A stretch of DNA of 64,000 nucleotides from Eledone cirrhosa (Eukaryota). A program made the position numbers and the translations under genes. Location of the stretch: contig OZ024749.1 in the NCBI GenBank assembly GCA_964016885.1, positions 7,130,001 to 7,194,000 of the forward strand, given 5' to 3'. Each line of letters begins with the position of its first letter. Position 1 is the stretch's first letter. The notes beneath the pieces were generated by a model. That model was given only the letters and a program-made list of their open reading frames with translations, ran no database searches and was not told the DNA's origin. Positions 2,498-57,716 of this stretch are shown here, one piece after another.

Positions 2498-2556
2498 ATA
2501 TATATATATATATAAACAATGAGTTATTTGGTTTGTTGATTATTCAACAATTATTG

Positions 2557-2617
2557 TATTTTATCTGACGAAAGCGTACTAAAATATTAGTATCCTTGAA
2601 ATACGTATAATAAAATA
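2557..2617 (+). ncRNA. Type I minimal hammerhead ribozyme (family H1)
   Basis: Stem I TATTTTAT/ATAAAATA; core CTGACGA (2565-2571); stem II AAGcGTACTAA-AATA-TTAGTATcCTT; GAAA; palindromic stem III TACGTA; AUA triplet, cleavage predicted after 2609. Confidence 0.8.
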
Positions 2618-2787
2618 AATATGGTTTTATAAAGATATTTTCCATTTATTAATATTATGTATACATATATATAATATATTCACTGCGTATAACTTCATGA
2701 TTCACAATATAACGTTAGGTTTGCAGTAAATATATTTTAACCCTATTAAATCTGTTAGATTGCCAGGGATAAATATGAGGAAGGTAT

Positions 2788-2830
2788 ACGGTGTTGATGA
2801 CAGCTAACAAGCTAGAAACTAGTTCATCGT
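2788..2830 (+). ncRNA. Degenerate minimal hammerhead motif (family H2)
   Basis: Stem I ACGGTG/CATCGT; core TTGATGA (C3>U); stem II cAGCT-AACA-AGCTa; GAAA; palindromic AACTAGTT; GUU triplet. Confidence 0.55.
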
Positions 2831-3312
2831 TCCTTTGTCAGTGTTGAACAAAAGGGCAACGATGGTTGCCGAACACTGTATGGCTTAATTCGAACAAACC
2901 GAATTAAACAAACCGAACATTATAATAAATGTTCGGTAAACCCATATATATATATATATGTGCATGTATGTATATACATACTACTGTATGTCCGTATACA
3001 TATATGTATGTACGTATACATACTTATAATATGAATATTGCTTTGTTAAAACTCTATATATTCAAATTTCTTTTTGGCTGGAAAACTTTACACACAAATA
3101 ACACCATTTTTTAAACTATGAATTCATTATAAAAATCACAACTTTCAACACAACTGAAACTATATTTTTTGGACTGCAATGAACTACATTTGTAAAGGTA
3201 ACGTTTTGTCTTGATATTCTAATGAGTGATATATATTATCTGTTCTGCATGATCCTATCATTGCATTGAGCTAAAATACACTTAGTAAGTGAGTAAAATG
3301 TTACTCTCATTC

Positions 3313-4483: not shown

Positions 4484-4605
4484 GGGAAGAAAAGAGTCAG
4501 GACCTCGATGGCTGAGCTCCGGCCGTTTCGACAGCTAGATCTTCTCTAAGTATTGAGTACTCTGGTGCATTATGGTCCACCTGGTTTCTCACCAGATTTT
4601 CTTTG

Positions 4606-4607
<2 letters not shown>
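4484..4607. mobile_element. Family H8 element, internally inverted fragment
   Basis: First half is collinear with 3548-3598; second half is the reverse complement of 3469-3530. (TA)n on both sides. Confidence 0.65.
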
Positions 4608-4641
<34 letters not shown>

Positions 4642-4644
<3 letters not shown>

Positions 4645-5880
4645 AAGTTCTAATTTGTAGGAAAGAAAACAAGGCGGCGGTCCATTCTGGGAAATGGTCA
4701 TGCTCGGTGTGTAGGAAAGGCGTAGGTAGAAACTCCATTTTATGTCCTAAATGCAAAGTATGGGTGCATAAAAGATGTAGTGGGATCACAGGTAAGCTAA
4801 CTAAGAACATAGATTTTACATGTGGCCGGTGTTCTGGTGCAATAAGTAGCAGCAAGTGCCCACAAAATACTAGCTCTTTCAATTGCGCAGAGGGTTCTAT
4901 AGAAATAGTGGACAGCTTCCGTTACCTGGGCGATAAAATCAGCAGTGGGGGAGGGTGCTCTGAAAGTACAGTAGCTAGAGTCAGAACTGGTTGGAAAAAG
5001 TTCAGAGAGCTTATACCACTATTAGCTGCTAAAGGGTTCTCCCTAAAAATGAAAGGCAGGTTGTACGATGCCTGCATACGAACAGCAATGCTGCATGGCA
5101 GTGAGACCTGGGCATTGTGTGCAGAGGATATACGCAGACTAGAGAGGAACGAAGCTTGCATGCTCCGCTGGATGTGTAACAGTAATATATGTGAACGGCA
5201 AAGCATAAACGAACTAAGGAAAAAATTAGAGATAAGAGGGATCAGATGTTGTTTACTCAAGAGAAGGCTACGTTGGTATGGACACGTGATGCGCATGAAA
5301 ATCGATAGCTGTATAACAAAGTGCAGGGCAATAAAGATAGACGGTAGTCACGGAATAGGCAGACCTAGAAAAACCTGGGACGAGCTGATAAACTCCGACA
5401 TCACACACTTACACCTCTCCAAGACAATGTCACTGGACCGAGACCTTTGGCGGTACTCAGTAACAGAGAAGACCCGCCTTACCTAAATATATAGTAAAAC
5501 CTACTCCAACCAGTAGGCATCTCTAACAAAATACACCCCGTCCCACCACCACCACCCCCACCCCATCCACACCACCCCGTTCTATGTAAAGTTATGTTGG
5601 TGCCGCGCCATAGGCCGAAACAAATGAGATCGTGTAGGTGTCACGACAAAAAAACACAGTCCACGCTGTAATGTGGCCGTGTAGGCAACACGGTAAAAAC
5701 CTCCCAGACCCACACTGTAAATGTGGTTGGTGTTAGGAAGGGCATCCAGCTGTAGAAAACCTGCCAGACAGTCCTATGCGAGCAAGACAACCACTCTTGC
5801 CTCAAGTGGGAAAACCCCCGTCCAAACCCATGCAAGCGTGGAACACGGACGTGAACCGTTGATGATGATGATGATGATGA
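4642..5880 (+). mobile_element. 5'-truncated RTE LINE, sister subfamily of the full-length element (PHD finger, RT domain 7, C-terminus, 3' UTR, (GAT)n tail)
   Basis: Open frame to the stop at 5486 aligns with roughly aa 755-1035 of the 12196 ORF. The ORF-track N-terminus (4572-4641) is microsatellite read-through. Confidence 0.92.
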
Positions 5881-6418: not shown

Positions 6419-6531
6419 ATCATCATTTCATTTTACGTTCGCTTTTTCCCTGCTTGCAAGGGTGGGACGGGAACTATATATATATATACAATGTAAATAA
6501 TAATCAAAGAGTGTTTAATCTTTCAAACATT

Positions 6532-6589
6532 TAATAACTAACAATCGTTTCATCCCAGCACAAGGCAGGGATAATCATCAGAGTTATTA
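6532..6589 (-). ncRNA. Hammerhead motif (family H3) in foldback element 6488-6720
   Basis: Minus strand: TAATAACT CTGATGA tt ATCCC..GGGAT GAAA CGATTG TT AGTTATTA. 8-bp stem I, two extra nt after the core, near-palindromic stem III. Confidence 0.65.
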
Positions 6590-6771
6590 CAAAAGTTAAA
6601 CACAAATATAGGATCAAATCTTTGTCACAAGAACATTCCTGCCTTGCGTTAGGATGAAACGATTGTTAGTTTTTAAATGTTTGAAAGATTAAACACTCTT
6701 AGGTTATTATTTACATTGTACATATATATATATATATATATGATATATATACATATATATATTTGAAAAGG

Positions 6772-6832
<61 letters not shown>

Positions 6833-6998
6833 GTAGGAGGTGAGTTTTATTGTAGCACAATAAAGCAATGCAAATATCGGATAAGTATCACTCTACACTT
6901 TTTCCCCATCTCATACATCAATCTTAAATTATTTTTCATATGTTGATTTAAAACTTCACTATTCACAAGTGTTTTTTAAGCTTCATATCATGTATCCC

Positions 6999-7069
6999 TA
7001 TTTTATCTGATGAAAACGCAAATATCATCCCATGATGATATTTGTTTTTGAAATGTGCATAATAAAATA
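6999..7069 (+). ncRNA. Hammerhead ribozyme (family H4) in element 6832-7103
   Basis: TATTTTAT CTGATGA AAAcGCAAATATCATC-CCAT-GATGATATTTGTtTTT GAAA TGTGCA TA ATAAAATA. Cleavage predicted after 7061. Confidence 0.8.
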
Positions 7070-7101
7070 CTTGGAACTCTTTTAACCATCTTTTGATCTT
7101 T

Positions 7102-8462: not shown

Positions 8463-9332
8463 GTGAGGTTTTTTTTACAAAATGAAAAACAACCGCGGTG
8501 TCCTACACGAGTGAAAGTATAAAGAAAAAGAGATGAAATCGAAAATGCAACTAGAGTCTTATTTTTTTAAATAAGGGTGCGAAAATGTAATGAAAACTTG
8601 TTCACATGACAGCCAAATTTCATTTATAACCAATCAAATCACGTTTATTAAAAAAAAGCCTTCGTGAGCCACCTTTTTTTTAAGTAAAGAAATTCAAACA
8701 CACACAACACACACAAGCACACAAATAAACATACATATCTTTACTTTCTTTATTCAATAGAAAATCTGAATTCTGACACCCCAGCGAACTAACCATATTC
8801 ACTGAACCAGAACAATTCTTCCATCCCTTTCTCTTGACCATTATCTTTCACTTATCATAAAATTCTCTAAAAAGGCTACAGAATGGATTTCAAATAAGGG
8901 CACGGAAATTTAATGAAAACTTGTTCACGTGACAGCATTAATTTCATTTATAACCAACCAAAAAAAAGCCTTCGTGAGCCCCTTTTTTCAAGTAAAAAGA
9001 AATTCAAACACTCATATTTGAAAAAAGAACCTGTGAGAACCCCCCCTCTTATTTGAAGAACTATTGTAACGCGAACTGGTGCAAAATTTATTATAATTAT
9101 TGACAAACCAATCAAATTACTTCTCGAAAAACCTGGCATTTCGAGCCACTTTTTCCATATAAAACAAGTAACATTCAGAGACCAACCAGATGTGAGAAAA
9201 ACCACAGACCCTCCATCTCAACTCACCTTTTGAAAAGCAGAAGAACTGCGAAACCGGTAAAGGAACCAAATAAATATATATATTTAAAAAAAAAATAAGA
9301 CTCCAGTTGCATTTTCGATTTCATCTCTTTTT

Positions 9333-9339
<7 letters not shown>
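8456..9339 (+). mobile_element. Non-coding Penelope-like element (family H6) with inverted 5' segment and internal duplication
   Basis: (TA)n flanks. 8518-8568 is inverted relative to 9286-9339. ~8567-8700 is duplicated at ~8892-9012. 9197-9339 is near-identical to 48017-48159. Confidence 0.65.
9226..9263 (+). ncRNA. Minimal hammerhead, U3-A8 core variant (family H6)
   Basis: CCTT TTGAAAA GCAG-AAGAA-CTGC GAAA CCGG TA AAGG. Palindromic ACCGGT stem III; GUA triplet. Confidence 0.75.
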
Positions 9340-9386
<47 letters not shown>

Positions 9387-9426
9387 GATATTAAATAAAT
9401 GGAAACTATATTTATAAAACCATATT

Positions 9427-9492
9427 TATTTCATTATATATATTTCAGGGATATCATATTAAAAATATGGTATGCCTTCTTCAGACAAAATA
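9427..9492 (-). ncRNA. Hammerhead (family H1)
   Basis: Minus: TATTTTGT CTGAAGA AGGcATAcCATATT-TTT-AATATGaTATcCCT GAAA TATATA TA ATGAAATA. Confidence 0.75.
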
Positions 9493-9897
9493 CAATATAA
9501 ACAGTCTTATAAATAGATAGATTTGACATACCTTACAACTTCAACTTCCATTTAAAAAGTTGATTTGGTAGTGAAAAATGTTAGGGACAGTTATAAAAAG
9601 AAAGAAAGAAAGAAAGCGAAGAAAAAGAAGAAATGCATGCAACGAAAAACAGAGAGAGATAGATATAGAGAGATAGATAGAGAGAGAGAAGAAATTCATG
9701 TAAAGAAAAAACAGAGAGAGATAGATAGAGAGAGAAAAAAACACAGAGGGAGATAGATAGTGTTTTTCTCAAAGTCTCAAACACTGAGTGTATTGGACAT
9801 CATTAGAAACAATATTTCAATTGGTTTTTCCATTGTTGATACTATCTACCAGTTGCAACTCATGGTAGAATGTGTAACATATAATAAAGTGCCTTGT

Positions 9898-12142: not shown

Positions 12143-15100
12143 TAGGGATGGATGAGCTGGGAATACACGAGCAACTCTGAATCAATAGATGAAATATGAA
12201 TCTGCGAGCTACCAAGCACCCACGTGAAGCGCCAACCCAGAGACCCTCCCCTACGAGTGTCGACAAATGCCCAAAACTCCGAGTTGGTACCATCAATGTA
12301 GGCTCAATGAAAGGAAGAGCAGGAGAAATCGTAGAAATGCTAGAGCGAAAGGAAGTTGATGTATGCTGTGTGCAAGAGACTAGATGGAGAGGAGGGTCTG
12401 CTAGAGTCCTTGTAGGAAAAAGCCAGTGCTACAAATTTTTCTGGGTGGGAAATGACGATGGGATGGGTGGTGTAGGTATACTATTAGCTGACAAGTGGGT
12501 AGATAAAGTAATCTCAGTGTACAGGGTAAATGCAAGAATCATTAAACTCAGACTAGTCCTGAATAAGACAATTACCACAATAATATCAGCTTACGCACCC
12601 CAATCGGGGCTGCCAGACGAACTTAAGGATAGGTTTTACGAGTCCCTAATACACACTACTGCTCTAACAGACGACAAGGACTTCCTAATCATTGCAGGAG
12701 ATTTTAACGGACACGTAGGTAAACACTGCGACGGCTTCGATAGAGTACATGGAGGCCATGGAGTTGGCACAAGGAATGAGGAAGGATTCAGACTTCTAGA
12801 ATTCTGCGACGCCAATGACATGTCGATATGTAACACAAACTTTAAAAAACCCGACAACCACCTGATCACCTATAGATCAGGGGAGCACTCTAGTCAGTTA
12901 GATTTTATCCTCATCAGAGGACGTGACAGATGGACGGTCGTAAACACAAAAGCCTTCCCTAGTGAGGAATGTACATCCCAACATAGCTTAGTTGTCAGCG
13001 ACCTCACGGTCAGAACTAGACGAGCCCTGAAACAGAGGCCAACCTGGAGAAGAAAGATCTGGAAGCTGAAAGTCCCCTCAACCAGTAACAGATTTAAAGA
13101 TATTTTACTCAACGCCTACGACAGTAAAGAAGAACAGATAGAGACATTTAACGTAGAAGAGAACTGGGAGTTCCTAAAAAATAACTTACTAGAGGCGACG
13201 GATGAGGTTTGTGGCTGGAGTAAGACCTCAAGCAGGAGGAGAGTGACTTGGTGGTGGAACAATAAGGTAGATGAAGCAGTCAAGGCCAAGAGACAGGCAT
13301 GGAAAGAATGGAAGAACGGGGGGAGCAGGGTACATTACATAGAGACCAAGAGGGAAGCTAGGCGACAAGTATACTTAGCTAGGAGGGAAGCAGAGGATAG
13401 AAAATTCAAGCATGTTTTACAACGTGAGGACCAGAAACAGGAGGTATTCAAGATTGCGAGGCAGTGTGTCAGAGATAGTTGTGATGTCATTGGAGAGAAG
13501 TGTATCCGGAATGATAAAGGTGAGCTTGCCCTCACAAGTGCTGAGAAGAAAGATGCATGGAAGAGTCATTATGATAGATTACTAAATGAGGAGAATGCAT
13601 GGGAAGAAGAGACCCTACCCCACGTAGACCCTATAGAGGGACCAGCAGTACAAGTCAGCGGCAGCGTAGTAAGTAAGGCAATCAGAGATATGAAGATAGG
13701 GAAGGCAACCGGTCCATCGGGTATAGCTGCCGAGATGCTGAAGGCATCTGGGTCTGTAGGTCACACTATAACCACACGTATCGTTAACCAGGTAATACTA
13801 GAGGGGGCCATACCAAAAGATTGGTGCAGTAGCATCATTGTCAACTGCTACAAAGGTAAAGGCGATGCACTAGATAGAGGAAACTATAGAGGTATAAAGT
13901 TGATGGACCAGGTCATGAAAGTAACAGAAAGAGTTATAGCACAGCTGATTAGGGACCGGGTGAATATAGACGAGATGCAATTTGGGTTTGTTCCAGGGAA
14001 AGGCACCACTGATGCGCTCTTCCTTGTGAGGCAATTACAGGAAAAGTACCTAGCTAAAAGTAAGCCACTCTACTTGGCATTTGTCGACCTTGAGAAAGCC
14101 TTTGACAGAGTTCCACGTGCAGTAATCTGGTGGGCTCTTAGAAAACTAGGAGTAGATGAATGGCTTGTGAAAGCGGTACAAGCCATGTATAGGGGAGCAG
14201 TCAGCAAAGTTAGGATTGGCAATGAGTATAGCGAGGAATTTAGCGTACAGGTTGGGGTCCACCAGGGCTCTGTTCTTAGCCCTCTCCTGTTCATCATAGT
14301 CCTGCAGGCAATAACGGAGGAGTTTAAGACCGGATGCCCATGGGAACTCCTGTATGCTGATGACCTCGCACTCATAGCTGAATCTATGGTAGAACTAGAG
14401 AATAAATTCCAAACCTGGAAGCAGGGACTAGAGAGAAAGGGCCTCAAAGTCAACATGACAAAGACTAAGGTCCTTATAAGTAGACGAGAAAACAGAACCC
14501 AGATCCCCTCAGGGAAATGGCCTTGCTCAGTATGTAGGAAAGGTGTAGGTAGGAACTCCATTCTTTGCCCCAAATGCAAACAATGGGTACACAAGAGATG
14601 TAGCGGGATCTCAGGAAGCTTAATTAAGAATGTAGGATTCACATGCAGCAGCTGTGCTGAAACAGCAAGCAAACAGCCACAGGAAACAAGTACCACCAAT
14701 CTCTGGGAGGGCCCTGTAGAAACAGTAGACAGCTTCTGCTACCTAGGTGACCGAATTAGCAACGGAGGTGGGTGCTCAGAAAGTACAATAACTAGGGTAA
14801 GAACGGGATGGAAGAAGTTTAGGGAACTACTACCACTGCTAGCTGCAAAAGGCTTCTCCCTCAGAATGAAAGGCAGACTGTATGATGCGTGTATCCGAAC
14901 AGCGATGTTGCATGGTAGTGAGACCTGGGCGCTGAAGGTGGAAGACTTACGTAGATTAGAGAGAAACGAAGCCTGCATGCTCCGATGGATGTGTAACAGT
15001 AATATACGTGAACGACAAAGCATAAATGAATTGAGAGAGAGACTGAGCATAAGAGGAATCAAATGCTGCGTGCAGGAGAGGCGGTTACGCTGGTATGGAC

Positions 15101-15621
15101 ATGTGATGCGTATGAAGGATGACAGCTGCATAAAAAGGTGCAGAGCACTAGAAGTTGATGGAAACCGCGGAGTGGGGAGACCCAAGATGACTTGGGATGA
15201 GGTGATAAAAGCCGACCTTACCCAACTACACCTCTCAAAGTCAATGACACACGACCGTGACTTCTGGCGTCACGCAGTAATACAGGGTACCCGACCTCCC
15301 ATGGGTACATGCTGAAGCATATAAACGATATGCCCCCCCCCCCCCCACCGCAAGGTGGTCGTGGAGGTGCCACGGCAAAACAGCACCCAGCCCACACTGT
15401 AAAGTGGACGTGTAGGCGCCACGAAAAAGCACCCAGCACTCACTGTAAATGAGGTTGGTGTTAGGAAGGGCATCCAGCTGTAGAAATCAAGCCAGATCAG
15501 TTCCTGTATGAGCAAGGCATGGTCAGCCGACCAGACACTGCCCACAACAGGACAACCCGTCTAACCCATGCTAGCGTGGAAGAACGGACGTAAAACGGTG
15601 ATGATGATGATGATGATGATG
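12143..15621 (+). mobile_element. Near-full-length RTE-clade LINE
   Basis: Single long ORF, ~300-nt 3' UTR with internal ~48-bp repeats, (GAT)n tail. Inserted within the minisatellite. Confidence 0.95.
12196..15315 (+). CDS. RTE LINE protein: APE endonuclease + reverse transcriptase with embedded PHD-type zinc finger
   Basis: APE motifs VGTINV, VQETRW, SAYAP, GDFNGH, LDFIL, SQHSLV. RT motifs [33 protein letters not shown] (14353-14364), FCYLG. RTE C-terminus [15 protein letters not shown]. Uninterrupted 1039 aa. Confidence 0.95.
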
Positions 15622-16302: not shown

Positions 16303-16343
16303 GAGAGTAAAACAAAGAATCCTTTAATACATCAAAAGTTTTT

Positions 16344-16388
16344 ATTAGCCGACAATGTTTCGTCCTATTAAGGACTCATCAGGGCAAT
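16344..16388 (-). ncRNA. Canonical minimal hammerhead ribozyme (family H7)
   Basis: Minus: ATTGCC CTGATGA GTCCT-TAAT-AGGAC GAAA C-ATT-G TC GGCtAAT. Perfect core, GUC triplet. Lies in a ~145-bp island (16299-16443) between (TA)n runs. Confidence 0.85.
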
Positions 16389-16677
16389 CAAAACAACAAG
16401 AGAGAGGGTGTTTGACTCAAACACGCTCCAGTATTCTAATCCTTATATATATATATATATGATACACATAAATATGTATATATATATATAGATACACATA
16501 AATATGTATATATATATAAACATACATACACACGTAAACAAGCAGGGAAAAAGTGGACGTAAAATGGAAATGAAAAAAAAAATGAAAAAAAAAAAATATA
16601 TATATATATATAAACATACATACACACGTAAACAAGTATATATATATATATATAAACATACATACACACGTAAACAA

Positions 16678-20610: not shown

Positions 20611-23600
20611 TGGTTGTTAAACCTGGATATCTATTGTGAAGCTAAGTAAAAGAGTATTGGTGGTTGTTAAACCTGGATATCTGTTGTGAAGCTAAGTAAA
20701 AGAGTATTGGTGGTTGTTAAACCTGGATATCTATTGTGAAGCTAAGTAAAACAGTATTGGTGGTTGTTAAACCTGGATATCTGTTGTGAAGCTAAGTAAA
20801 ACAGTATTGATGGTAGTTAAACCTGGATATCTATTGTGAAGCTAAAAACAGTATTGGTGGTTGTTAAACCTGGATATCTGTTGTGAAGCTAAGTAAAACA
20901 GTAGTGGTGGTTGTTAAACCTGGATATCTGTTGTGAAGCTAAGTAAAACAGTATTGATGGTAGTTAAACCTGGATATCTATTGTGAAGCTAAAAACAGTA
21001 TTGGTGGTTGTTAAACCTGGATATCTGTTGTGAAGCTAAGTAAAACAGTATTGCTGGTTGTTAAACCTGGATATCTGTTGTGAAGCTAAGTAAAACAGTA
21101 TTGATGGTAGTTAAACCTGGATATCTATTGTGAAGCTAAAAACAGTATTGGTGGTTGTTAAACCTGGATATCTGTTGTGAAGCTAAGTAAAACAGTATTG
21201 CTGGTTGTTAAACCTGGATATCTGTTGTGAAGCTAAGTAAAACAGTATTGCTGGTTGTTAAACCAGGATATCTGTTGTGAAGCTAAGTAAAACAGTATTG
21301 CTGGTTGTTAAACCTGGATATCTATTGTGAAGCTAAGTAAAACAGTATTGGTGGTAGTTAAACCTGGATATCTGTTGTGAAGCTAAGTAAAACAGTATTG
21401 CTGGTTGTTAAACCTGGATATCCGTTGTGAAGCTAAGTAAAACAGTATTGCTGGTAGTTAAACCTGGATATCTGTTGTGAATCTAAGTAAAACAGTATTG
21501 CTGGTAGTTAAACCTGGATATCTGTTGTGAAGCTAAGTAAAACAGTATTGCTGGTAGTTAAACCTGGATATCTGTTGTGAAGCTAAGTAAAACAGTATTG
21601 CTGGTAGTTAAACCTGGATATCTGTTGTGAAGCTAAGTAAAACAGTATTGGTGGTTGTTAAACCTGGATATCTGTTGTGAAGCTAAGTAAAACAGTATTG
21701 GTGGTTGTTAAACATGGATATCTGTTGTGAAGCTAAGTAAAACAGTATTGGTGGTTGTTAAACCTGGATATCTGTTGTGAAGCTAAGTAAAACAGTATTG
21801 GTGGTTGTTAAACCTGGATATCTGTTGTGAAGCTAAGTAAAACAGTATTGGTGGTAGTTAAACCTGGATATCTGTTGTGAAGCTAAGTAAAACAGTATTG
21901 GTGGTAGTTAAACCTGGATATCTGTTGTGAAGCTAAGTAAAACAGTATTGGTGGTAGTTAAACCTGGATATCTGTTGTGAAGCTAAGTAAAACAGTATTG
22001 GTGGTAGTTAAACCTGGATATCTGTTGTGAAGCTAAGTAAAACAGTATTGGTGGTTGTTAAACCTGGATATCTGTTGTGAAGCTAAGTAAAACAGTATTG
22101 GTGGTTGTTAAACCTGGATATATGTTGTGAAGCTAAGTAAAACAGTATTGGTGGTTGTTAAACCTGGATATCTGTTGTGAAGCTAAGTAAAAGAGTATTG
22201 GTGGTTGCTAAACCTGGATATCTATTGTGAAGCTAAGTAAAACAGTATTGGTGGTTGTTAAACCTGGATATCTGTTGTGAAGCTAAGTAAAACAGTATTG
22301 GTGGTAGTTAGACCTGGATATCTATTGTGAAGCTAAGTAAAACAGTATTGGTGGTAGTTAAACCTGGATATCTGTTGTGAAGCTAAGTAAAACAGTATTG
22401 GTGGTTGTTAAACCTGGATATCTATTGTGAAGCTAAGTAAAACAGTATTGATGGTAGTTAAACCTGGATATCTATTGTGAAGCTAAAAACAGTATTGGTG
22501 GTTGTTAAACCTGGATATCTGTTGTGAAGCTAAGTAAAACAGTATTGCTGGTTGTTAAACCTGGATATCTGTTGTGAAGCTAAGTAAAACAGTATTGCTG
22601 GTTGTTAAACCTGGATATCTGTTGTGAAGCTAAGTAAAACAGTATTGCTGGTTGTTAAACCTGGATATCTATTGTGAAGCTAAGTAAAACAGTATTGGTG
22701 GTAGTTAAACCTGGATATCTGTTGTGAAGCTAAGTAAAACAGTATTGCTGGTTGTTAAACCTGGATATCTGTTGTGAAGCTAAGTAAAACAGTATTGCTG
22801 GTAGTTAAACCTGGATATCTGTTGTGAATCTAAGTAAAACAGTATTGCTGGTAGTTAAACCTGGATATCTGTTGTGAAGCTAAGTAAAACAGTATTAGTA
22901 TTGCCGGTAGTTAAACCTGGATATCTGTTGTGAAGCTAAGTAAAACAGTATTGGTGGTTGTTAAACCTGGATATCTGTTGTGAAGCTAAGTAAAACAGTA
23001 TTGGTGGTTGTTAAACATGGATATCTGTTGTGAAGCTAAGTAAAACAGTATTGGTGGTTGTTAAACCTGGATATCTGTTGTGAAGCTAAGTAAAACAGTA
23101 TTGGTGGTTGTTAAACCTGGATATCTGTTGTGAAGCTAAGTAAAACAGTATTGATGGTAGTTAAACCTGGATATCTGTTGTGAAGCTAAGTAAAACAGTA
23201 TTGGTGGTTGTTAAACCTGGATATCTGTTGTGAAGCTAAGTAAAACAGTATTGGTGGTAGTTAAACCTGGATATCTGTTGTGAAGCTAAGTAAAACAGTA
23301 TTGGTGGTAGTTAAACCTGGATATCTGTTGTGAAGCTAAGTAAAACAGTATTGGTGGTAGTTAAACCTGGATATCTGTTGTGAAGCTAAGTAAAACAGTA
23401 TTGGTGGTAGTTAAACCTGGATATCTGTTGTGAAGCTAAGTAAAACAGTATTGGTGGTTGTTAAACCTGGATATCTGTTGTGAAGCTAAGTAAAACAGTA
23501 TTGGTGGTTGTTAAACCTGGATATCTGTTGTGAAGCTAAGTAAAACAGTATTGGTGGTTGTTAAACCTGGATATCTGTTGTGAAGCTAAGTAAAACAGTA

Positions 23601-26600
23601 TTGGTGGTTGTTAAACCTGGATATCTATTGTGAAGCTAAGTAAAACAGTATTGGTGGTTGTTAAACCTGGATATCTGTTGTGAAGCTAAGTAAAACAGTA
23701 TTGGTGGTTGTTAAACCTGGATATCTGTTGTGAAGCTAAGTAAAACAGTATTGATGGTAGTTAAACCTGGATATCTGTTGTGAAGCTAAAAACAGTATTG
23801 GTGGTTGTTAAACCTGGATATCTGTTGTGAAGCTAAGTAAAAGAGTATTGGTGGTAGTTAAACCTGGATATCTGTTGTGAAGCTAAAAACAGTATTGATG
23901 GTTGTTAAACCTGGATATCTGTTGTGAAGCTAAGAAAAACAGTATTGGTGGTAGTTAAACCTGGATATCTGTTGTCAAGCTAAGTAAAACAGTATTGGTG
24001 GTTGTTAAACCTGGATATCTGTTGTGAAGCTAAGTAAAACAGTATTGGTGGTTGTTAAACCTGGATATCTGTTGTGAAGCTAAGTAAAACAGTATTGCTG
24101 GTTGTTAAAACTGGATATCTGTTGTGAAGCTAAGTAAAACAGTATTGCTGGTTGTTAAACCTGGATATCTATTGTGAAGCTAAGTAAAACAGTATTGGTG
24201 GTAGTTAAACCTGGATATCTGTTGTGAAGCTAAGTAAAACAGTATTGCTGGTTGTTAAACCTGGATATCTGTTGTGAAGCTAAGTAAAACAGTATTGCTG
24301 GTAGTTAAACCTGGATATCTGTTGTGAATCTAAGTAAAACAGTATTGCTGGTAGTTAAACCTGGATATCTGTTGTGAAGCTAAGTAAAACAGTATTGCTG
24401 GTAGTTAAACCTGGATATCTGTTGTGAAGCTAAGTAAAACAGTATTGCTGGTAGTTAAACCTGGATATCTGTTGTGAAGCTAAGTAAAACAGTATTGGTG
24501 GTTGTTAAACCTGGATATCTGTTGTGAAGCTAAGTAAAACAGTATTGGTGGTTGTTAAACATGGATATCTGTTGTGAAGCTAAGTAAAACAGTATTGGTG
24601 GTTGTTAAACCTGGATATCTGTTGTGAAGCTAAGTAAAACAGTATTGGTGGTTGTTAAACCTGGATATCTGTTGTGAAGCTAAGTAAAACAGTATTGATG
24701 GTAGTTAAACCTGGATATCTGTTGTGAAGCTAAGTAAAACAGTATTGGTGGTTGTTAAACCTGGATATCTGTTGTGAAGCTAAGTAAAACAGTATTGGTG
24801 GTAGTTAAACCTGGATATCTGTTGTGAAGCTAAGTAAAACAGTATTGGTGGTAGTTAAACCTGGATATCTGTTGTGAAGCTAAGTAAAACAGTATTGGTG
24901 GTAGTTAAACCTGGATATCTGTTGTGAAGCTAAGTAAAACAGTATTGGTGGTAGTTAAACCTGGATATCTGTTGTGAAGCTAAGTAAAACAGTATTGGTG
25001 GTTGTTAAACCTGGATATCTGTTGTGAAGCTAAGTAAAACAGTATTGGTGGTTGTTAAACCTGGATATCTGTTGTGAAGCTAAGTAAAACAGTATTGGTG
25101 GTTGTTAAACCTGGATATCTGTTGTGAAGCTAAGTAAAAGAGTATTGGTGGTTGTTAAACCTGGATATCTATTGTGAAGCTAAGTAAAACAGTATTGGTG
25201 GTTGTTAAACCTGGATATCTGTTGTGAAGCTAAGTAAAACAGTATTGCTGGTAGTTAGACCTGGATATCTATTGTGAAGCTAAGTAAAACAGTATTGGTG
25301 GTAGTTAAACCTGGATATCTGTTGTGAAGCTAAGTAAAACAGTATTGGTGGTTGTTAAACCTGGATATCTGTTGTGAAGCTAAGTAAAACAGTATTGATG
25401 GTAGTTAAACCTGGATATCTATTGTGAAGCTAAAAACAGTATTGGTGGTTGTTAAACCTGGATATCTGTTGTGAAGCTAAGTAAAACAGTATTGCTGGTT
25501 GTTAAACCTGGATATCTGTTGTGAAGCTAAGTAAAACAGTATTGCTGGTTGTTAAACCTGGATATCTGTTGTGAAGCTAAGTAAAACAGTATTGCTGGTT
25601 GTTAAACCTGGATATCTATTGTGAAGCTAAGTAAAACAGTATTGGTGGTAGTTAAACCTGGATATCTGTTGTGAAGCTAAGTAAAACAGTATTGCTGATT
25701 GTTAAACCTGGATATCTGTTGTGAAGCTAAGTAAAACAGTATTGCTGGTAGTTAAACCTGGATATCTGTTGTGAATCTAAGTAAAACAGTATTGCTGGTA
25801 GTTAAACCTGGATATCTGTTGTGAAGCTAAGTAAAACAGTATTGCTGGTAGTTAAACCTGGATATCTGTTATGAAGCTAAGTAAAACAGTATTGCTGGTA
25901 GTTAAACCTGGATATCTGTTGTGAAGCTAAGTAAAACAGTATTGGTGGTTGTTAAACCTGGATATCTGTTGTGAAGCTAAGTAAAACAGTATTGATGGTA
26001 GTTAAACCTGGATATCTGTTGTGAAGCTAAGTAAAACAGTATTGGTGGTTGTTAAACCTGGATATCTGTTGTGAAGCTAAGTAAAACAGTATTGGTGGTA
26101 GTTAAACCTGGATATCTGTTGTGAAGCTAAGTAAAACAGTATTGGTGGTAGTTAAACCTGGATATCTGTTGTGAAGCTAAGTAAAACAGTATTGGTGGTA
26201 GTTAAACCTGGATATCTGTTGTGAAGCTAAGTAAAACAGTATTGGTGGTAGTTAAACCTGGATATCTGTTGTGAAGCTAAGTAAAACAGTATTGGTGGTT
26301 GTTAAACCTGGATATCTGTTGTGAAGCTAAGTAAAACAGTATTGGTGGTTGTTAAACCTGGATATCTGTTGTGAAGCTAAGTAAAAGAGTATTGGTGGTT
26401 GTTAAACCTGGATATCTGTAGTGAAGCTAAGTAAAACAGTATTGGTGGTTGTTAAACCTGGATATCTATTGTGAAGCTAAGTAAAACAGTATTGGTGGTT
26501 GTTAAACCTGGATATCTGTTGTGAAGCTAAGTAAAACAGTATTGGTGGTTGTTAAACCTGGATATCTGTTGTGAAGCTAAGTAAAACAGTATTGATGGTA

Positions 26601-29600
26601 GTTAAACCTGGATATCTGTTGTGAAGCTAAAAACAGTATTGGTGGTTGTTAAACCTGGATATCTGTTGTGAAGCTAAGTAAAAGAGTATTGGTGGTAGTT
26701 AAACCTGGATATCTGTTGTGAAGCTAAAAACAGTATTGATGGTTGTTAAACCTGGATATCTGTTGTGAAGCTAAGAAAAACAGTATTGGTGGTAGTTAAA
26801 CCTGGATATCTGTTGTCAAGCTAAGTAAAACAGTATTGGTGGTTGTTAAACCTGGATATCTGTTGTGAAGCTAAGTAAAACAGTATTGGTGGTTGTTAAA
26901 CCTGGATATCTATTGTGAAGCTAAGTAAAACAGTATTGGTGGTTGTTAAACCTGGATATCTGTTGTGAAGCTAAAAACAGTATTGATGGTAGTTAAACCT
27001 GGATATCTGTTGTGAAGCTAAAAACAGTATTGGTGGTTGTTAAACCTGGATATCTGTTGTGAAGCTAAGTAAAAGAGTATTGGTGGTAGTTAAACCTGGA
27101 TATCTGTTGTGAAGCTAAAAACAGTATTGATGGTTGTTAAACCTGGATATCTGTTGTGAAACTAAGTAAAACAGTATTGGTGGTAGTTAAACCTGGATAT
27201 CTGTTGTGAAGCTAAGTAAAACAGTATTGGTGGTTGTTAAACCTGGATATCTATTGTGAAGCTAAGTAAAACAGTATTGGTGGTTGTTAAACCTGGATAT
27301 CTGTTGTGAAGCTAAAAACAGTATTGATGGTAGTTAAACCTGGATATCTGTTGTGAAGCTAAGTAAAACAGTATTGCTGGTAGTTAAACCTGGATATCTG
27401 TTGTGAAGCTAAGTCAAACAGTATTGGTGGTTGTTAAACCTGGATATCTGTTGTGAAGCTAAGTCAAACAGTATTGGTGGTTGTTAAACCTGGATATCTG
27501 TTGTGAAGCTAAAAACAGTATTGGTGGTTGTTAAACCTGGTTATCTGTTGTGAAGCTAAGTAAAACAGTATTGCTGGTAGTTAAACCTGGATATCTGTTG
27601 TGAAGCTAAGTAAAACAGTATTGGTGGTAGTTAAACCTGGATATCTGTTGTGAAGCTATGTAAAACAGTATTGGTGGTAGTTAAACCTGGATATCTGTTG
27701 TGAAGCTAAGTAAAACAGTATTGGTGGTTGTTAAACCTGGATATCTGTTGTGAAGCTAAGTAAAACAGTATTGGTGGTAGTTAAACCTGGATATCTGTTG
27801 TGAAGCTAAGTCAAACAGTATTGCTGGTAGTTAGACCTGGATATCTGTTGTGAAGCTAAGTAAAACCGTATTGCTGGTTGTTAAACCTGGATATCTGTTG
27901 TGAAGCTAAGTAAAACAGTATTGGTGTAGTTAAACTTGGATATCTGTTGTGAAGCTAAGTAAAAGAGTATTGGTGGTTGTTAAACCTGGATATCTGTTGT
28001 GAAGCTAAGTAACACAGTATTGCTGGTAGTTAAACCTGGATATCTGTTGTGAAGCTAAGTAAAAGAGTATTGCTGGTAGTTAAACCAGGATATCTGTTGT
28101 GAAGCTAAAAACAGTATTGGTGGTAGTTAAACCTGGATATCTGTTGTGAAGCTAAAAACAGTATTGGTGGTAGTTAAACCTGGATATCTGTTGTGAAGCT
28201 AAGTAAAACAGTATTGGTGGTAGTTAAACCTGGATATCTGTTGTGAAGCTAAGTAAAACAGTATTGCTGGTAGTTAAACCAGGATATCTGTTGTGAAGCT
28301 AAAAACAGTATTGGTGGTAGTTAAACCTGGATATCTGTTGTGAAGCTAAAAACAGTATTGGTGGTAGTTAAACCTGGATATCTGTTGTGAAGCTAAGTAA
28401 AACAGTATTGGTGGTAGTTAAACCTGGATATCTGTTGTGAAGCTAAGTAAAACAGTATTGCTGGTAGTTAAACCTGGATATCTGTTGTGAAGCTAAGTCA
28501 AACAGTATTGATGGTAGTTAAACCAGGATATCTGTTGTGAAGCTAAGTAAAACAGTATTGGTGGTAGTTAAACCTGGATATCAGTTGTGAAGCTAAGTAA
28601 AACAGTATTGGGGGTTGTTAAACCTGGATATCTGCTGTGAAGCTAAGTAAAAGAGTATTGCTGGTAGTTAAACCTGGATATCTGTTGTGAAGCTAAGTAA
28701 AACAGTATTGATGGTAGTTAAACCTGGATATCTGTTGTGAAGCTAAGTAAAAGAGTATTGCTGGTAGTTAAACCTGGATATCTGTTGTGAAGCTAAGTAA
28801 AACAGTATTGATGGTAGTTAAACCTGGATATCTGTTGTGAAGTAAAACAGTATTGGTGGTAGTTAAACCTGGATATCAGTTGTGAAGCTAAGTAAAACAG
28901 TATTGATGGTTGTTAAACCTGGATATCTGTTGTGAAGCTAAGTAAAACAGTATTGATGGTAGTTAAACCTGGATATCTGTTGTGAAGCTAAGAAAAACAG
29001 TATTGATGGTAGTTAAACCTGGATATCTGTTGTGAAGCTAAGTAAAACAGTATTGGTGGTAGTTAAACCTGGATATCAGTTGTGAAGCTAAGTAAAACAG
29101 TATTGATGGTTGTTAAACCTGGATATCTGTTGTGAAGCTAAGTAAAACAGTATTGATGGTTGTTAAACCTGGATATCTGTTGTGAAGCTAAAAACAGTAT
29201 TGGTGGTAGTTAAACCTGGATATCTGTTGTGAAGCTAAGTAAAACAGTATTGGTGGTAGTTAAACCTGGATATCTGTTGTGAAGCTAAGTAAAACAGTAT
29301 TGCTGGCAGTTAAACCAGGATATCTGTTGTGAAGCTAAGTAACACAGTATTGGTGGTAGTTAAACCTGGATATCTGTTGTGAAGCTAAGTAAAACAGTAT
29401 TGCTGGTAGTTAAACCTGGATATCTGTTGTGAAGCTAAGTAAAACAGTATTGCTGGCAGTTAAACCAGGATATCTGTTGTGAAGCTAAGTAAAACAGTAT
29501 TGGTGGTTGTTAAACCTGGATATCTGTTGTGGAGCTAAAAACAGTATTGGTGGTAGTTAAACCTGGATATCTGTTGTGAAGCTAATTAAAACAGTATTGG

Positions 29601-32600
29601 TGGTAGTTAAACCTGGATATCTGTTGTGAAGCTAAGTAAAACAGTATTGCTGGCAGTTAAACCAGGATATCTGTTGTGAAGCTAAGTAAAACAGTATTGG
29701 TGGTAGTTAAACCTGGATATCTGTTGTGAAGCTAAGTAAAACAGTATTGCTGGTAGTTAAACCTGGATATCTGTTGTGAAGCTAAGTAAAACAGTATTGC
29801 TGGCAGTTAAACCAGGATATCTGTTGTGAAGCTAAGTAAAACAGTATTGGTGGTTGTTAAACCTGGATATCTGTTGTGGAGCTAAAAACAGTATTGGTGG
29901 TAGTTAAATCTGGATATCTGTTGTGAAGCTAAGAAAAACAGTATTGGTGGTTGTTAAACCTGGATATCTGTTGTGAAGCTAAGTAAAACAGTATTGGTGG
30001 TTGTTAAACCTGGATATCTGTTGTGAAGCTAAGTAAAAGAGTATTGGTGGTAGTTAAACCTGGATATCTGTTGTGAAGCTAAGTAAAAGAGTATTGGTGG
30101 TAGTTAAACCTGGATATCTGTTGTGAAGCTAAGTAAAACAGTATAGGTGGTAGTTAAACCTGGATATCTGTTGTGAAGCTAAGTAAAACAATATTGGTGG
30201 TAGTTAAACCTGGATATCTGTTGTGAAGCTAAGTAAAACAGTATTGATGGTAGTTAAACCTGGATATCTGTTGTGAAGCTAAGTAAAACAGTATTGCTGG
30301 TAGTTAAACCTGGATATCTGATGTGAAGCTAAGTAAAACAGTATTGGTGGTAGTTAAACCTGGATATCTGTTGTGAAGCTAAGTAAAACAGTATTGGTGG
30401 TTGTTAAACCTGGATATCTGTTGTGAAGCTAAGTAAAAGAGTATTGGTGGTAGTTAAACCTGGATATCTGTTGTGAAGCTAAGTAAAACAGTATTGGTGG
30501 TAGTTAAACCTGGATATCTGTTGTGAAGCTAAGTAAAACAGTATTGGTGGTTGTTAAACCTGGATATCTGTTGTGAAGCTAAGTAAAAGAGTATTGGTGG
30601 TAGTTAAACCTGGATATCTGTTGTGAAGCTAAGTAAAACAGTATTGCTGGTAGTTAAACCTGGATATCTGTTGTGAAGCTAAGTAAAAGAGTATTGGTGG
30701 TTGTTAAACCTGGATATCTGTTGTGAAGCTAAGTAAAACAGTATTGGTGGTTGTTAAACCTGGATATCAGTTGTGAAGCTAAGTAAGACAGTATTGGTGG
30801 TAGTTAAACCTGGATATCTGTTGTGAAGCTAAGTAAAACAGTATTGATGGCAGTTAAACCTGGATATCTGTTGTGAAGCTAAGTAAAACAGTATTGGTGG
30901 TTGTTAAACCTGGATATCTGTTGTGAAGCTAAGTAAAACAGTATTGGTGGTTGTTAAACCTGGATATCTATTGTGGAGCTAAAAACAGTATTGGTGGTTG
31001 TTAAACCTGGATATCTGTTGTGAAGCCAAGTAAAACAGTATTGGTGGTTGTTAAACCTGGATATCTGTTGTGAAGCTAAATTGTAAAACAGTATTGATGG
31101 TAGTTAAACCTGGATATCTGTTGTGAAGCTAAGTAAAACAGTATTGGTGGTTGTTAAACCTGGATATCTGTTGTGAAGCTAAGTAAAACAGTATTGGTGG
31201 TAGTTAAACCTGGATATCTGTTGTGAAGCTAAGTAAAACAGTATTGGTGGTAGTTAAACCTGGATATCTGTTGTGAAGCTAAGTAAAACAGTATTGCTGG
31301 CAGTTAAACCAGGATATCTGTTGTGAAGCTATGTAAAACAGTATTGGTGGTTGTTAAACCTGGATATCTTGTGGAGCTAAAAACAGTATTGGTGGTAGTT
31401 AAATCTGGATATCTGTTGTGAAGCTAAGAAAAACAGTATTGGTGGTTGTTAAACCTGGATATCTGTTGTGAAGCTAAGTAAAACAGTATTGGTGGTTGTT
31501 AAACCTGGATATCTGTTGTGAAGCTAAGTAAAACAGTATTGGTGGTAGTTAAACCTGGATATCTGTTGTGAAGCTAAGTAAAAGAGTATTGGTGGTAGTT
31601 AAACCTGGATATCTGTTGTGAAGCTAAGTAAAACAGTATAGGTGGTAGTTAAACCTGGATATCTGTTGTGAAGCTAAGTAAAACAATATTGGTGGTAGTT
31701 AAACCTGGATATCTGTTGTGAAGCTAAGTAAAACAGTATTGATGGTAGTTAAACCTGGATATCTGTTGTGAAGCTAAGTAAAACAGTATTGCTGGTAGTT
31801 AAACCTGGATATCTGATGTGAAGCTAAGTAAAACAGTATTGGTGGTAGTTAAACCTGGATATCTGTTGTGAAGCTAAGTAAAACAGTATTGGTGGTTGTT
31901 AAACCTGGATATCTGTTGTGAAGCTAAGTAAAAGAGTATTGGTGGTAGTTAAACCTGGATATCTGTTGTGAAGCTAAGTAAAACAGTATTGGTGGTAGTT
32001 AAACCTGGATATCTGTTGTGAAGCTAAGTAAAACAGTATTGGTGGTTGTTAAACCTGGATATCTGTTGTGAAGCTAAGTAAAAGAGTATTGGTGGTAGTT
32101 AAACCTGGATATCTGTTGTGAAGCTAAGTAAAACAGTATTGCTGGTAGTTAAACCTGGATATCTGTTGTGAAGCTAAGTAAAAGAGTATTGGTGGTTGTT
32201 AAACCTGGATATCTGTTGTGAAGCTAAGTAAAACAGTATTGGTGGTTGTTAAACCTGGATATCAGTTGTGAAGCTAAGTAAAACAGTATTGGTGGTAGTT
32301 AAACCTGGATATCTGTTGTGAAGCTAAGTAAAACAGTATTGATGGCAGTTAAACCTGGATATCTGTTGTGAAGCTAAGTAAAACAGTATTGGTGGTTGTA
32401 AAACCTGGATATCTGTTGTGAAGCTAAGTAAAACAGTATTGGTGGTTGTTAAACCTGGATATCTATTGTGGAGCTAAAAACAGTATTGGTGGTTGTTAAA
32501 CCTGGATATCTGTTGTGAAGCCAAGTAAAACAGTATTGGTGGTTGTTAAACCTGGATATCTGTTGTGAAGCTAAATTGTAAAACAGTATTGATGGTAGTT

Positions 32601-37528: not shown

Positions 37529-37639
37529 ATAAATATATTTGGAATGTTGTTTTAGAATTAAACAAGAAGCTACATCTATTTATCACCATTTATATTTTAT
37601 AGAGTAAAGTTGAAAAAGGTTATTAACAATTTATTACTT

Positions 37640-47811: not shown

Positions 47812-48152
47812 TTAGAAAGTGAGGTTTTTTTTACAAAATGAAAAATAACCGAGGTGTCCTACACGAGTGAAAGTATAAAGAAAAAGAGATGAAATCGAAA
47901 ATGCAACTGAAGTCTTATTTTTTTTAAAAAAATATATATATTTATTTGGTTCCTTTACCGGTTTCGCAGTTCTTCTGCTTTTCAAAAGGTGAGTTGAGAT
48001 GGAGGGTCTGTGGTTGAAAAACCACAGACCCTCCATCTCAACTCACCTTTTGAAAAGCAGAAGAACTGCGAAACCGGTAAAGGAACCAAATAAATATATA
48101 TATTTAAAAAAAAAATAAGACTTCAGTTGCATTTTCGATTTCATCTCTTTTT

Positions 48153-48159
<7 letters not shown>
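47812..48159. mobile_element. Family H6 foldback element with two U3-A8 hammerheads (47952-47989 minus, 48046-48083 plus)
   Basis: ~140-bp near-perfect inverted arms (47874-48015 / 48020-48159) around a GAAA loop. (TA)n flanks. Confidence 0.8.
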
Positions 48160-48193
<34 letters not shown>

Positions 48194-57296: not shown

Positions 57297-57300
57297 TATA

Positions 57301-57716
57301 AACAATGAGTTTGTTGATTATTCAAGAGAATTATGTTCATAATATATATGAAGCGCTCTACAGTAAATTTATCTAGAGCATTATAATATTAATAATAGTA
57401 ATAAATGGAAAATATCACTATAGCATCATATTTATTTTATCATACGTATTTCAAGGATACCAAAGCATAGTATGCTTTCTTCAGATAAAATACAATATTT
57501 GATGTATAAGATAGTGACATACCCAAAGTATAAGCTTTCAACTTCAGCTTACAGTGGGCATCCTGGGTATGCACTTTGGGTATGTCACTATCTTATACAT
57601 CAAATATTGTATATCATCTGATGAAAGCATACCATAATTTGGTATCCTTGAAATACGTATATTGAAATAAATATGATGCTATACTGATATTTTCCATTTA
57701 TTACTATTATTAATAT
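57301..57716. mobile_element. Family H1 foldback element with two hammerheads (57433-57492 minus, 57610-57669 plus)
   Basis: Inverted arms ~57385-57529 / ~57573-57716. Cores CTGAAGA and CTGATGA, GAAA TACGTA, triplets AUG and AUA. Confidence 0.8.

What the first reader, a model, noticed from the sequence alone, without database searches (positions are those of the whole stretch)
2557..2617. Family H1 hammerhead shows structure-preserving variation across four copies
Stem II opens AAG/CTT at 2572, 57433-57492 and 57610-57669, but AGG/CCT at 9427-9492, a compensatory change. All four keep a C-C mismatch at stem II position 4, while loop II length and sequence vary freely. Core position 7 varies (CTGACGA/CTGAAGA/CTGATGA) exactly where the consensus allows. 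Family H4 has an analogous C-T mismatch and the same 8-bp stem I. Inference: selection on the RNA fold, and the retained mismatch may be a tertiary-contact site.
Basis: partly seen in the sequence, partly recalled or inferred. Interest (0 to 1): 0.7.

Follow-up and report, generated by a model that had tools for sequence, protein, structure and literature searches.

The report
Octopus retrotransposon hammerheads keep C·C mismatch
These four motifs are leftover ends of a known kind of jumping gene and have the shape of hammerhead RNAs predicted to cut themselves; across some 25,000 copies one helix changes in matched pairs while a single unpaired C·C is kept, likely because it is a contact point that the moving element needs.

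Summary
Observation confirmed. The four motifs are type I hammerhead-shaped sequences in short 3'-end fragments of Hydra-clade Penelope-like retrotransposons. The parent ORF (DKT, CxCX5C linker, no CCHH) lies 1–2.3 kb upstream in fuller copies elsewhere. A stem-II-blind pattern finds 24,921 copies: 21,751 keep C·C at pair 4, and only 396 have it paired, scattered as single mutations. Stem II covaries across subfamilies (directed tree-aware test 0/400), but my R-scape-style all-pairs test gave no pair below E=0.05. Synonymous sites of linked ORFs are near saturation (tree length 4.9), yet C11.4 stays in 19/19 and C10.4 in 17/19. A second Hydra family (~50% protein identity, unrelated stems) also keeps C·C. 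Selection therefore acted on source elements, not on these copies: cores decay neutrally, two window copies look damaged, and two are halves of one insertion. Penelope hammerheads with compensatory variation are published; the fixed C·C is not in the tables I read. A tertiary contact is plausible but untested. This scan reported the same feature three times on other pieces of this genome.

The parts
2557..2617 (+). H1 type I hammerhead motif: stem I 2557-2564/2610-2617, core 2565-2571 and 2598-2601, stem II 2572-2597, palindromic stem III 2601-2608, predicted cleavage after A2609
2575..2594 (+). C10.4 (2575) opposite C11.4 (2594): the retained 1x1 mismatch at stem II pair 4
2545..2665 (+). 5'-truncated 3' end (pLTR region) of a Hydra-clade PLE, same subfamily as L031/L040 (93-98% identity)
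2516..2550 (-). inverted piece of the element's downstream tail at the 5' junction, next to (TA)n
   Evidence: matches L003, L005 and others in the orientation opposite to the hammerhead match
9427..9492 (-). hammerhead motif of the AGG/CCT subfamily; C9474·C9450; stem III AUAUAUAU; core and AUA triplet intact
9378..9616 (-). 5'-truncated 3' end fragment carrying that motif, ending in (TA)n
   Evidence: L192 91%, L149 95%
57433..57492 (-). hammerhead motif, left arm of an inverted insertion; C57474·C57456; G at the cleavage position (57441), predicted impaired
57610..57669 (+). hammerhead motif, right arm; C57628·C57646; T·T closing pair and A·A in stem I, predicted impaired
57298..57716 (.). 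one inverted (head-to-head) PLE insertion: arms 57386-57716, tail about 57298-57385
6999..7069 (+). H4 hammerhead motif: same stem I, AAA/TTT, C7017·T7046, stem III AUGUGCAU; in a fragment of about 6896-7100

Best explanation
The four motifs are hammerhead-shaped sequences in truncated 3' ends of Hydra-clade Penelope-like retrotransposons, predicted to cut the element's RNA as dimers, and their C·C mismatch has been kept in the source lineages, likely because C10.4 makes a specific contact that stands in for the usual loop II docking onto stem I. Shown: identity and position in the pLTR (about 245 nt before the ORF start in tandems, period about 4.0 kb); covariation of stem II and of the stem III palindrome between subfamilies; retention of C·C across near-saturated silent divergence; neutral decay of inserted copies. 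Inferred: tandem transcripts pair two palindromic stems III into a dimer and cleave after the NUH triplet, probably with help from the element's protein; selection acts only on copies that go through RNA again. Inferred and untested: the real loop II is 8-11 pairs from the core and hypervariable, so it cannot dock as in canonical type I hammerheads, whereas the mismatch sits three pairs from the core, about where the canonical loop II begins.
For: Parent: RT + CxCX5C + GIY-YIG ORFs upstream of H1 motifs; tandems L217 and L291. C·C in 21,751 of 24,921; C-G 164 and G-C 232, the listed rows spread over all subfamily backgrounds. Unbiased 181 copies: pairs 1-3 and 5-7 are 90-97% paired, pair 4 about 2%. 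Directed covariation: summed score 307.7 vs null 20.6±42.5, 0/400; slid controls at most 10.5; 0/500. Four-fold sites differ 0.5-0.65 between deep subfamilies (saturation about 0.68 from base composition). No four-fold site among 42 has C in 7 or more of 8 lineages. Simulated P(19/19 C)=0.001 and P(17 or more)=0.023. C10.4 has 0 changes on internal branches against 10 at tips, is mostly in a CpG (137 of 181), and pairing it would gain about 4-7 kcal/mol in 11 of 12 tested copies. C·C in 36 of 36 F2 and 35 of 42 F3 copies, whose stems are unrelated. 11.4 changes to U or A in whole subfamilies while 10.4 never does. The palindrome centre stays paired in 20 of 20 with CG, UA and UG.
Against: No cleavage, structure or RNA data here. 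The all-pairs R-scape-style test found no pair at E<0.05; each pair has only 1-3 independent two-sided changes. If the region evolves at half the four-fold rate, the retention probabilities rise to 0.02 and 0.18. Stem I differs between H1 (8 A-U pairs) and F2/F3 (about 5 mixed pairs), and I found no convincing shared partner base. PLE hammerheads are described as lacking tertiary contacts (PMC6155905, passages), and the Anolis PLE hammerhead cleaves only with the ORF protein and is dispensable for insertion in vitro (PMC11167929). Minimum-energy folds of the monomers are not clearly better than shuffles in 4 of 5 window copies.
Confidence: 0.5

Rival explanations
1. The C·C is a recognition mark for the element's own RT-endonuclease protein, which would bind stem II to fold the ribozyme or to pick its template.
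For: The Anolis PLE hammerhead cleaves only when the ORF protein is added (PMC11167929). C·C is shared by H1 and F2, which have related ORFs (about 50% identity) but unrelated stems I. C10.4 identity is fixed.
Against: In Anolis the protein-binding region maps to the first 172 nt of the ORF, a different clade and layout. No binding data here. A site unchanged over 50% protein divergence fits an RNA-internal constraint at least as well.
Confidence: 0.28
2. The mismatch is a generic brake that weakens stem II, to slow cleavage or to let the helix switch or be read through by the reverse transcriptase.
For: It costs about 4-7 kcal/mol; 11.4 tolerates C, U or A. An upstream UAUGUC motif could pair with 10.2-10.9, including C10.4, in some subfamilies.
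Against: Any mismatch would do, yet 10.4 never leaves C on an internal branch despite strong A/T bias and CpG context. The upstream motif does not covary with stem II, gives only 4-8 pairs with uncompensated mismatches, and can pair in an extended stem I instead.
Confidence: 0.14
3. The C·C is inherited without function: a frozen accident spread by a few master elements, or by exchange of pLTR ends.
For: Copies are clonal expansions of about 15 subfamilies; one chimeric locus was seen (L205); the all-pairs test is not significant.
Against: 3' UTRs track the ORF tree in the other loci, and those of L197 and L198 no longer align to the rest outside the hammerhead region. Neighbouring pairs turned over, and F2 shares only the core, stem III and C·C.
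Confidence: 0.08

Closest known systems
Hydra-clade Penelope-like elements and their hammerheads (Craig et al. 2021, PMC8557442; includes Hydra-1_Obim from Octopus bimaculoides)
   Same: C-terminal GIY-YIG, DKT, RW(K/R/C) motif, CxCX5C linker, no CCHH, CxxC/CxH flanks, (TA)n targets, sense hammerhead near the 3' end with palindromic stem III, inverted 5'-truncated partners; U·U at the first stem II position is common there and occurs in one H1 subfamily.
   Different: The unit is about 4.0 kb (published: generally under 3 kb), with a 1-2.3 kb 3' UTR. None of the 26 Hydra rows of File S2 shows a C·C at pair 4 (read by eye). The Hydra-1_Obim hammerhead has a different stem I, II and III, so H1 is another family.
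PLE hammerheads of Cervera and De la Pena 2014 (PMC4209133), palindromic-helix-III variants of Drosophila, Aedes and rotifers
   Same: [quoted passage not shown]
   Different: No extra nucleotide after A9 and mostly A10.1-U11.1 or G·U instead of G-C. A fixed C·C at pair 4; among their 56 representatives I saw one C·A (S. purpuratus 1) and one U·U (Clonorchis 2) at the fourth pair, single examples, and no C·C.
Canonical type I hammerheads and non-LTR retrozymes (Schistosoma Sm-alpha type)
   Same: Same core and type I topology; dimer-type stem III.
   Different: Those have a 4-bp stem II whose loop docks on a stem I internal loop, and lie in short tandem repeats. H1 has a long stem II with a variable loop and is the end of an autonomous element; a same-strand partner within 1 kb was seen in only 3 of 60 loci.
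Poseidon_Ac hammerhead of Anolis (Frangieh et al. 2024, PMC11167929)
   Same: PLE pLTR hammerhead; tail extension at insertion ends.
   Different: Different clade; there the ORF starts inside stem II, here about 245 nt downstream; activity was tested there and not here.

Membership tests
Type I hammerhead ribozyme | Core CUGANGA...GAAA with U16.1 | tested here: met
   all four copies and H4
Type I hammerhead ribozyme | NUH cleavage triplet (rule recalled) | tested here: inconclusive
   AUA in 3 of 4 window copies and 179 of 181 family copies; AUG at 57441, so that copy fails
Type I hammerhead ribozyme | Three helices with stem I open-ended, supported by covariation | tested here: met
   stem II directed test 0/400 and 0/500; all-pairs test not significant; stem I varies mostly A-U to G·U
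Type I hammerhead ribozyme | Rfam hammerhead model match | tested here: not met
   0 matches at gathering score; no hammerhead family among the 150 shown of 243 rows at E<=1
Type I hammerhead ribozyme | Site-specific self-cleavage | not testable with these tools
   no assay possible
Dimeric PLE hammerhead | Short palindromic stem III, unstable as a monomer | tested here: met
   8-nt palindrome; self-duplex -3.2 to -6.5 kcal/mol against +4.7 as a hairpin; centre stays self-complementary in 20 of 20
Penelope-like element | RT plus C-terminal GIY-YIG ORF, pLTR tandems, inverted truncated copies, tail | tested here: met
   inverted partner within 1 kb in 12 of 60 loci. No ORF remnant in the window itself; Pfam did not name the ORF pieces
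Hydra clade | DKT, RWK-like motif, CxCX5C linker, no CCHH, CxxC/CxH around the EN end, (TA)n target | tested here: met
   ORFs of L191-L195 against the definitions and the Hydra-1_Obim alignment rows, by eye
Hydra clade | Placement in the published RT phylogeny | not tested
   published proteins were not loaded into a tree
Neptune clade | CX2-5CxxC linker and CCHH motif in the EN | tested here: not met
   linker is CxCX5C and only one Cys lies inside the GIY-YIG core
Naiad clade | N-terminal EN, DKA, no hammerhead | tested here: not met
   EN is C-terminal, DKT, hammerhead present
Non-LTR retrozyme | Non-coding short tandem repeats, each with a hammerhead | tested here: not met
   window copies are solo or inverted; the family has coding parents

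The most novel reading that the evidence does not exclude
An octopus sub-lineage of Hydra elements uses an undescribed hammerhead subtype in which a fixed C10.4 in a 1x1 internal mismatch replaces the loop II tertiary contact, or is the handle for the element's protein. It is kept across families only 50% alike in protein and present in over 35,000 copies, a natural mutational scan that makes the role of Penelope hammerheads directly testable.
Probability: 0.4. Interest if true: 0.62.

Novelty: new variant of a known kind. Interest (0 to 1): 0.42.

Why it matters
What hammerheads do for Penelope-like elements is open: published ones cleave poorly, may need protein, and have been suggested to be passengers (PMC8557442, PMC11167929). 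A motif whose helix turns over in matched pairs while silent sites saturate shows that the fold is under selection in transposing lineages. The one fixed non-canonical position gives a precise residue to mutate. Descriptors that demand perfect helices would tend to miss such motifs, and Rfam gave no match here. The four window copies themselves are probably inert remnants.

Tried and rejected
Rfam: no hammerhead match. Neptune was my first assignment and was rejected after reading the Hydra definition; Naiad was rejected on domain order. Pfam did not recognise the PLE ORF pieces. R-scape-style all-pairs test: no pair significant. Upstream UAUGUC as a switch partner of stem II: complementary but not covarying. 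U2.3 is shared in stem I of H1, F2 and F3, but one shared base among three A/T-rich families is too weak to call a partner. Expression: no RNA holder listed; the three runs laid are contigs of one sample and add nothing independent. L205 was dropped from the retention test because its hammerhead and ORF group with different subfamilies; L034 and L225 were left out because no downstream motif was parsed. The F3 parent ORF could not be linked cleanly (L298 is ambiguous). Lünse et al. 2017 on dimeric PLE hammerhead variants is not held, so I could not check it for this mismatch.

Full report
Observation. The four motifs are present as described: cores start at 2565(+), 9484(-), 57484(-) and 57618(+). 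Each has three pairs, a C·C, and then six or more further pairs in stem II. H4 at 7007(+) has C·T and the same 8-bp stem I. Rfam gave nothing at gathering score. The two copies at 57 kb are arms of one inverted insertion. One has G at the cleavage position; the other has T·T at the closing pair of stem I.

What they belong to. The window lies in a 3.0-Gb genome that I take to be octopus-like, by inference from the parent ORF's likeness to Hydra-1_Obim; I did not determine the species. A stem-II-blind pattern has 24,921 exact matches and 0 in the reversed control. Fuller copies carry an ORF with RT and C-terminal GIY-YIG upstream in sense, or an inverted truncated ORF next to the motif. Near-complete ORFs show DKT, an RRLRW motif, a CxCX5C linker, no CCHH and CxxC/CxH flanks. 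These are the Hydra-clade marks of Craig et al., and they match the Hydra-1_Obim rows by eye. I first called the parent Neptune; an earlier scan note pointed to Hydra, which I then checked. Tandems have a period of 3,997 (L217) and 4,097 (L291), with the ORF start about 245 nt after the hammerhead core, so the motif is in the pLTR. The window holds no Hydra ORF remnant. Its copies are 120-240-bp 3' ends beside (TA)n, and the one at 2545 has an inverted tail piece at 2516-2550. Of 60 loci, 12 had an inverted partner within 1 kb, 3 a same-strand partner and 45 neither.

Covariation. Of 238 distinct H1-type copies in the fetched loci, 57 had been selected on stem II letters and were set aside, leaving 181. 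Pairs 1-3 and 5-7 are 90-97% paired. Pair 2 is A-U 118 and G-C 48; pair 3 G-C 100 and A-U 63; pair 5 G-C 134 and A-U 21; pair 6 U-A 117 and C-G 48. Pair 4 is C·C in 150, C·U in 11, U·C in 8, C·A in 5, and Watson-Crick in 2. The AGG/CCT copy is a member of a 9-copy subfamily. On 159 distinct rows (short stems II and identical rows dropped), my emulation of R-scape's all-pairs null gave no pair at E<0.05: best 0.245, with stem II pairs at ranks 1, 3, 4, 44 and 339 of 2,628. A directed test that re-deals the 3' partner's changes on the tree gave a summed score of 307.7 against 20.6±42.5 (0/400), pairs 2, 5 and 6 at 0/400 each, pair 3 at 19/400, pair 1 at 148/400, and slid controls at or below 10.5. 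The pair counter on 20 hand-picked copies gave 0/500 for four of five measures (this control ignores relatedness). The gap between the two tests reflects only 1-3 independent two-sided events per pair. The centre of the stem III palindrome is CG, UA or UG in 20 of 20, and the 8-mer is stable as a self-duplex but not as a hairpin, which fits the dimer model.

Is the mismatch selected? Genome-wide, C·C occurs in 21,751 of 24,921, C-G in 164 and G-C in 232. In the 100 rows listed for each, the paired forms sit on all subfamily backgrounds, and some are indel shifts; no amplified paired subfamily is visible. As a neutral yardstick I used ORFs linked to their hammerheads. Four-fold sites differ by 0.5-0.65 between deep subfamilies, against about 0.68 at saturation from base composition. 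Of 42 four-fold sites shared by 8 lineages, 25 contain a C and none has C in 7 or more (this set still included L205). 3' UTR matches agree with the ORF tree except for L205, which I dropped. On the remaining 19 of 22 loci the four-fold tree length is 4.92; C11.4 is kept in 19 and C10.4 in 17 (two C-to-T). The simulated neutral probabilities are 0.001 and 0.023, rising to 0.023 and 0.18 at half rate, and 0 of 72 real four-fold columns keep a C at 89% or more. On the 159-row tree C10.4 changes 0 times on internal branches and 10 times at tips, while downstream flank columns average 2.8 and 5.9; C11.4 changes about twice internally, to U and to A. A second family, F2, has 10,728 matches and a Hydra ORF about 50% identical; it has different stems I and II but C·C in 36 of 36. 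A third, F3 (60 matches under a length limit; parent unresolved), has it in 35 of 42. Pairing the position would stabilise stem II by about 4-7 kcal/mol in 11 of 12 copies. Selection acts on source elements only: among 75 copies found by profile in loci chosen for other reasons, core sites deviate 1.9%, the same as invariant stem I sites, and 18 have a broken core or triplet.

Mechanism. Established for relatives: PLE hammerheads lie in pLTRs, have palindromic stems III and cleave weakly as dimers (PMC4209133), and the Anolis one needs the ORF protein and is not needed for insertion in vitro (PMC11167929). Inferred here: the same processing role, with the C·C as a position- and identity-specific contact. 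Loop II varies widely (stem II spans 25-36 nt in most copies) and lies too far out to dock as in canonical type I motifs, whose helix II is 4 bp; the mismatch lies about where that loop starts. C10.4 is fixed while its partner may be C, U or A, which argues against a generic brake. Against docking on stem I: H1 has 8 A-U pairs and F2/F3 about 5 mixed pairs, with no clear common partner, which leaves protein recognition as a close rival. None of this was tested.

Comparison with the literature. [quoted passage not shown] Among its 56 representatives I saw one C·A and one U·U at the fourth pair and no C·C. Craig et al. (PMC8557442: sections 6 and 11, passages, supplement parts 1-2 and search hits) list 26 Hydra hammerhead rows, none with C·C at pair 4. 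Also seen: PMC11167929 (parts 1-2 of 4); bioRxiv 10.64898/2026.07.22.740005 (parts 1-2 of 5; its supplements are closed); passages of PMC3088659 (U·U at 10.1 is tolerated), PMC6765202 and PMC6155905. Lünse et al. 2017 was not available and may bear on novelty. Six full-text searches listed no paper on a fixed stem II mismatch in cephalopod or Hydra hammerheads; none of the 20 papers listed held the phrase 'C-C mismatch'. The scan itself noted this feature three times on other pieces of this genome; those notes are not independent support.

Verdict. A real, known kind of motif in a new structural variant. Interest 0.42.

Noticed in passing
window 12193-15315 (+): Open 1040-aa frame with apurinic endonuclease, RT and PHD-finger matches (Pfam): a LINE-type element; a second PHD-bearing fragment lies at 4557-5486.
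   Followed up: partly
window 20611-37529: 50-bp satellite, 340 copies, 95% matches, strong G skew.
   Followed up: no
window 16341-16392 (-): Canonical-looking type I hammerhead with a 4-bp G-C-rich stem II and 6-nt loop, cleavage triplet GUC, no mismatch.
   Followed up: no
window 2786-2832 (+): Degenerate hammerhead (U at C3) of another family with a 6-nt stem III palindrome; intact relatives in L026, L091, L094, L099, L110, L125.
   Followed up: partly
window 6510-6700: Hammerhead-like motif on the minus strand (core at 6581) with an inverted, degenerate partner near 6630-6680.
   Followed up: no
G000, e.g. L291:2530-6671: Family F2: 10,728 matches, full tandem Hydra element of 4.1 kb with C·C in a different stem context; two subfamilies covary at pair 6.
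   Followed up: yes
L261-L290, L298-L310: Family F3: long branched-looking stem II, U·U first pair, C·C at pair 4, cleavage after C; parent ORF not resolved.
   Followed up: partly
L205: ORF and downstream hammerhead group with different subfamilies: nested insertion or 3'-end exchange.
   Followed up: partly
H1 copies, 20-35 nt upstream of the core (e.g. window 57583-57588): Conserved UAUGUC, in several subfamilies within a GGUAUGU that resembles a 5' splice site (recalled consensus); it can pair in an extended stem I or with stem II; GT is lost in other subfamilies.
   Followed up: partly
window 47874-48193 and 9196-9373: Long inverted-repeat (MITE-like) element, 96-99% identical between sites, right next to the 9427 copy.
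   Followed up: no
L017, L029, L124, L133, L156: Further hammerhead families with an ACC-N3-GGU stem III like Hydra-1_Obim and long, irregular stems II without the pair-4 C·C.
   Followed up: no
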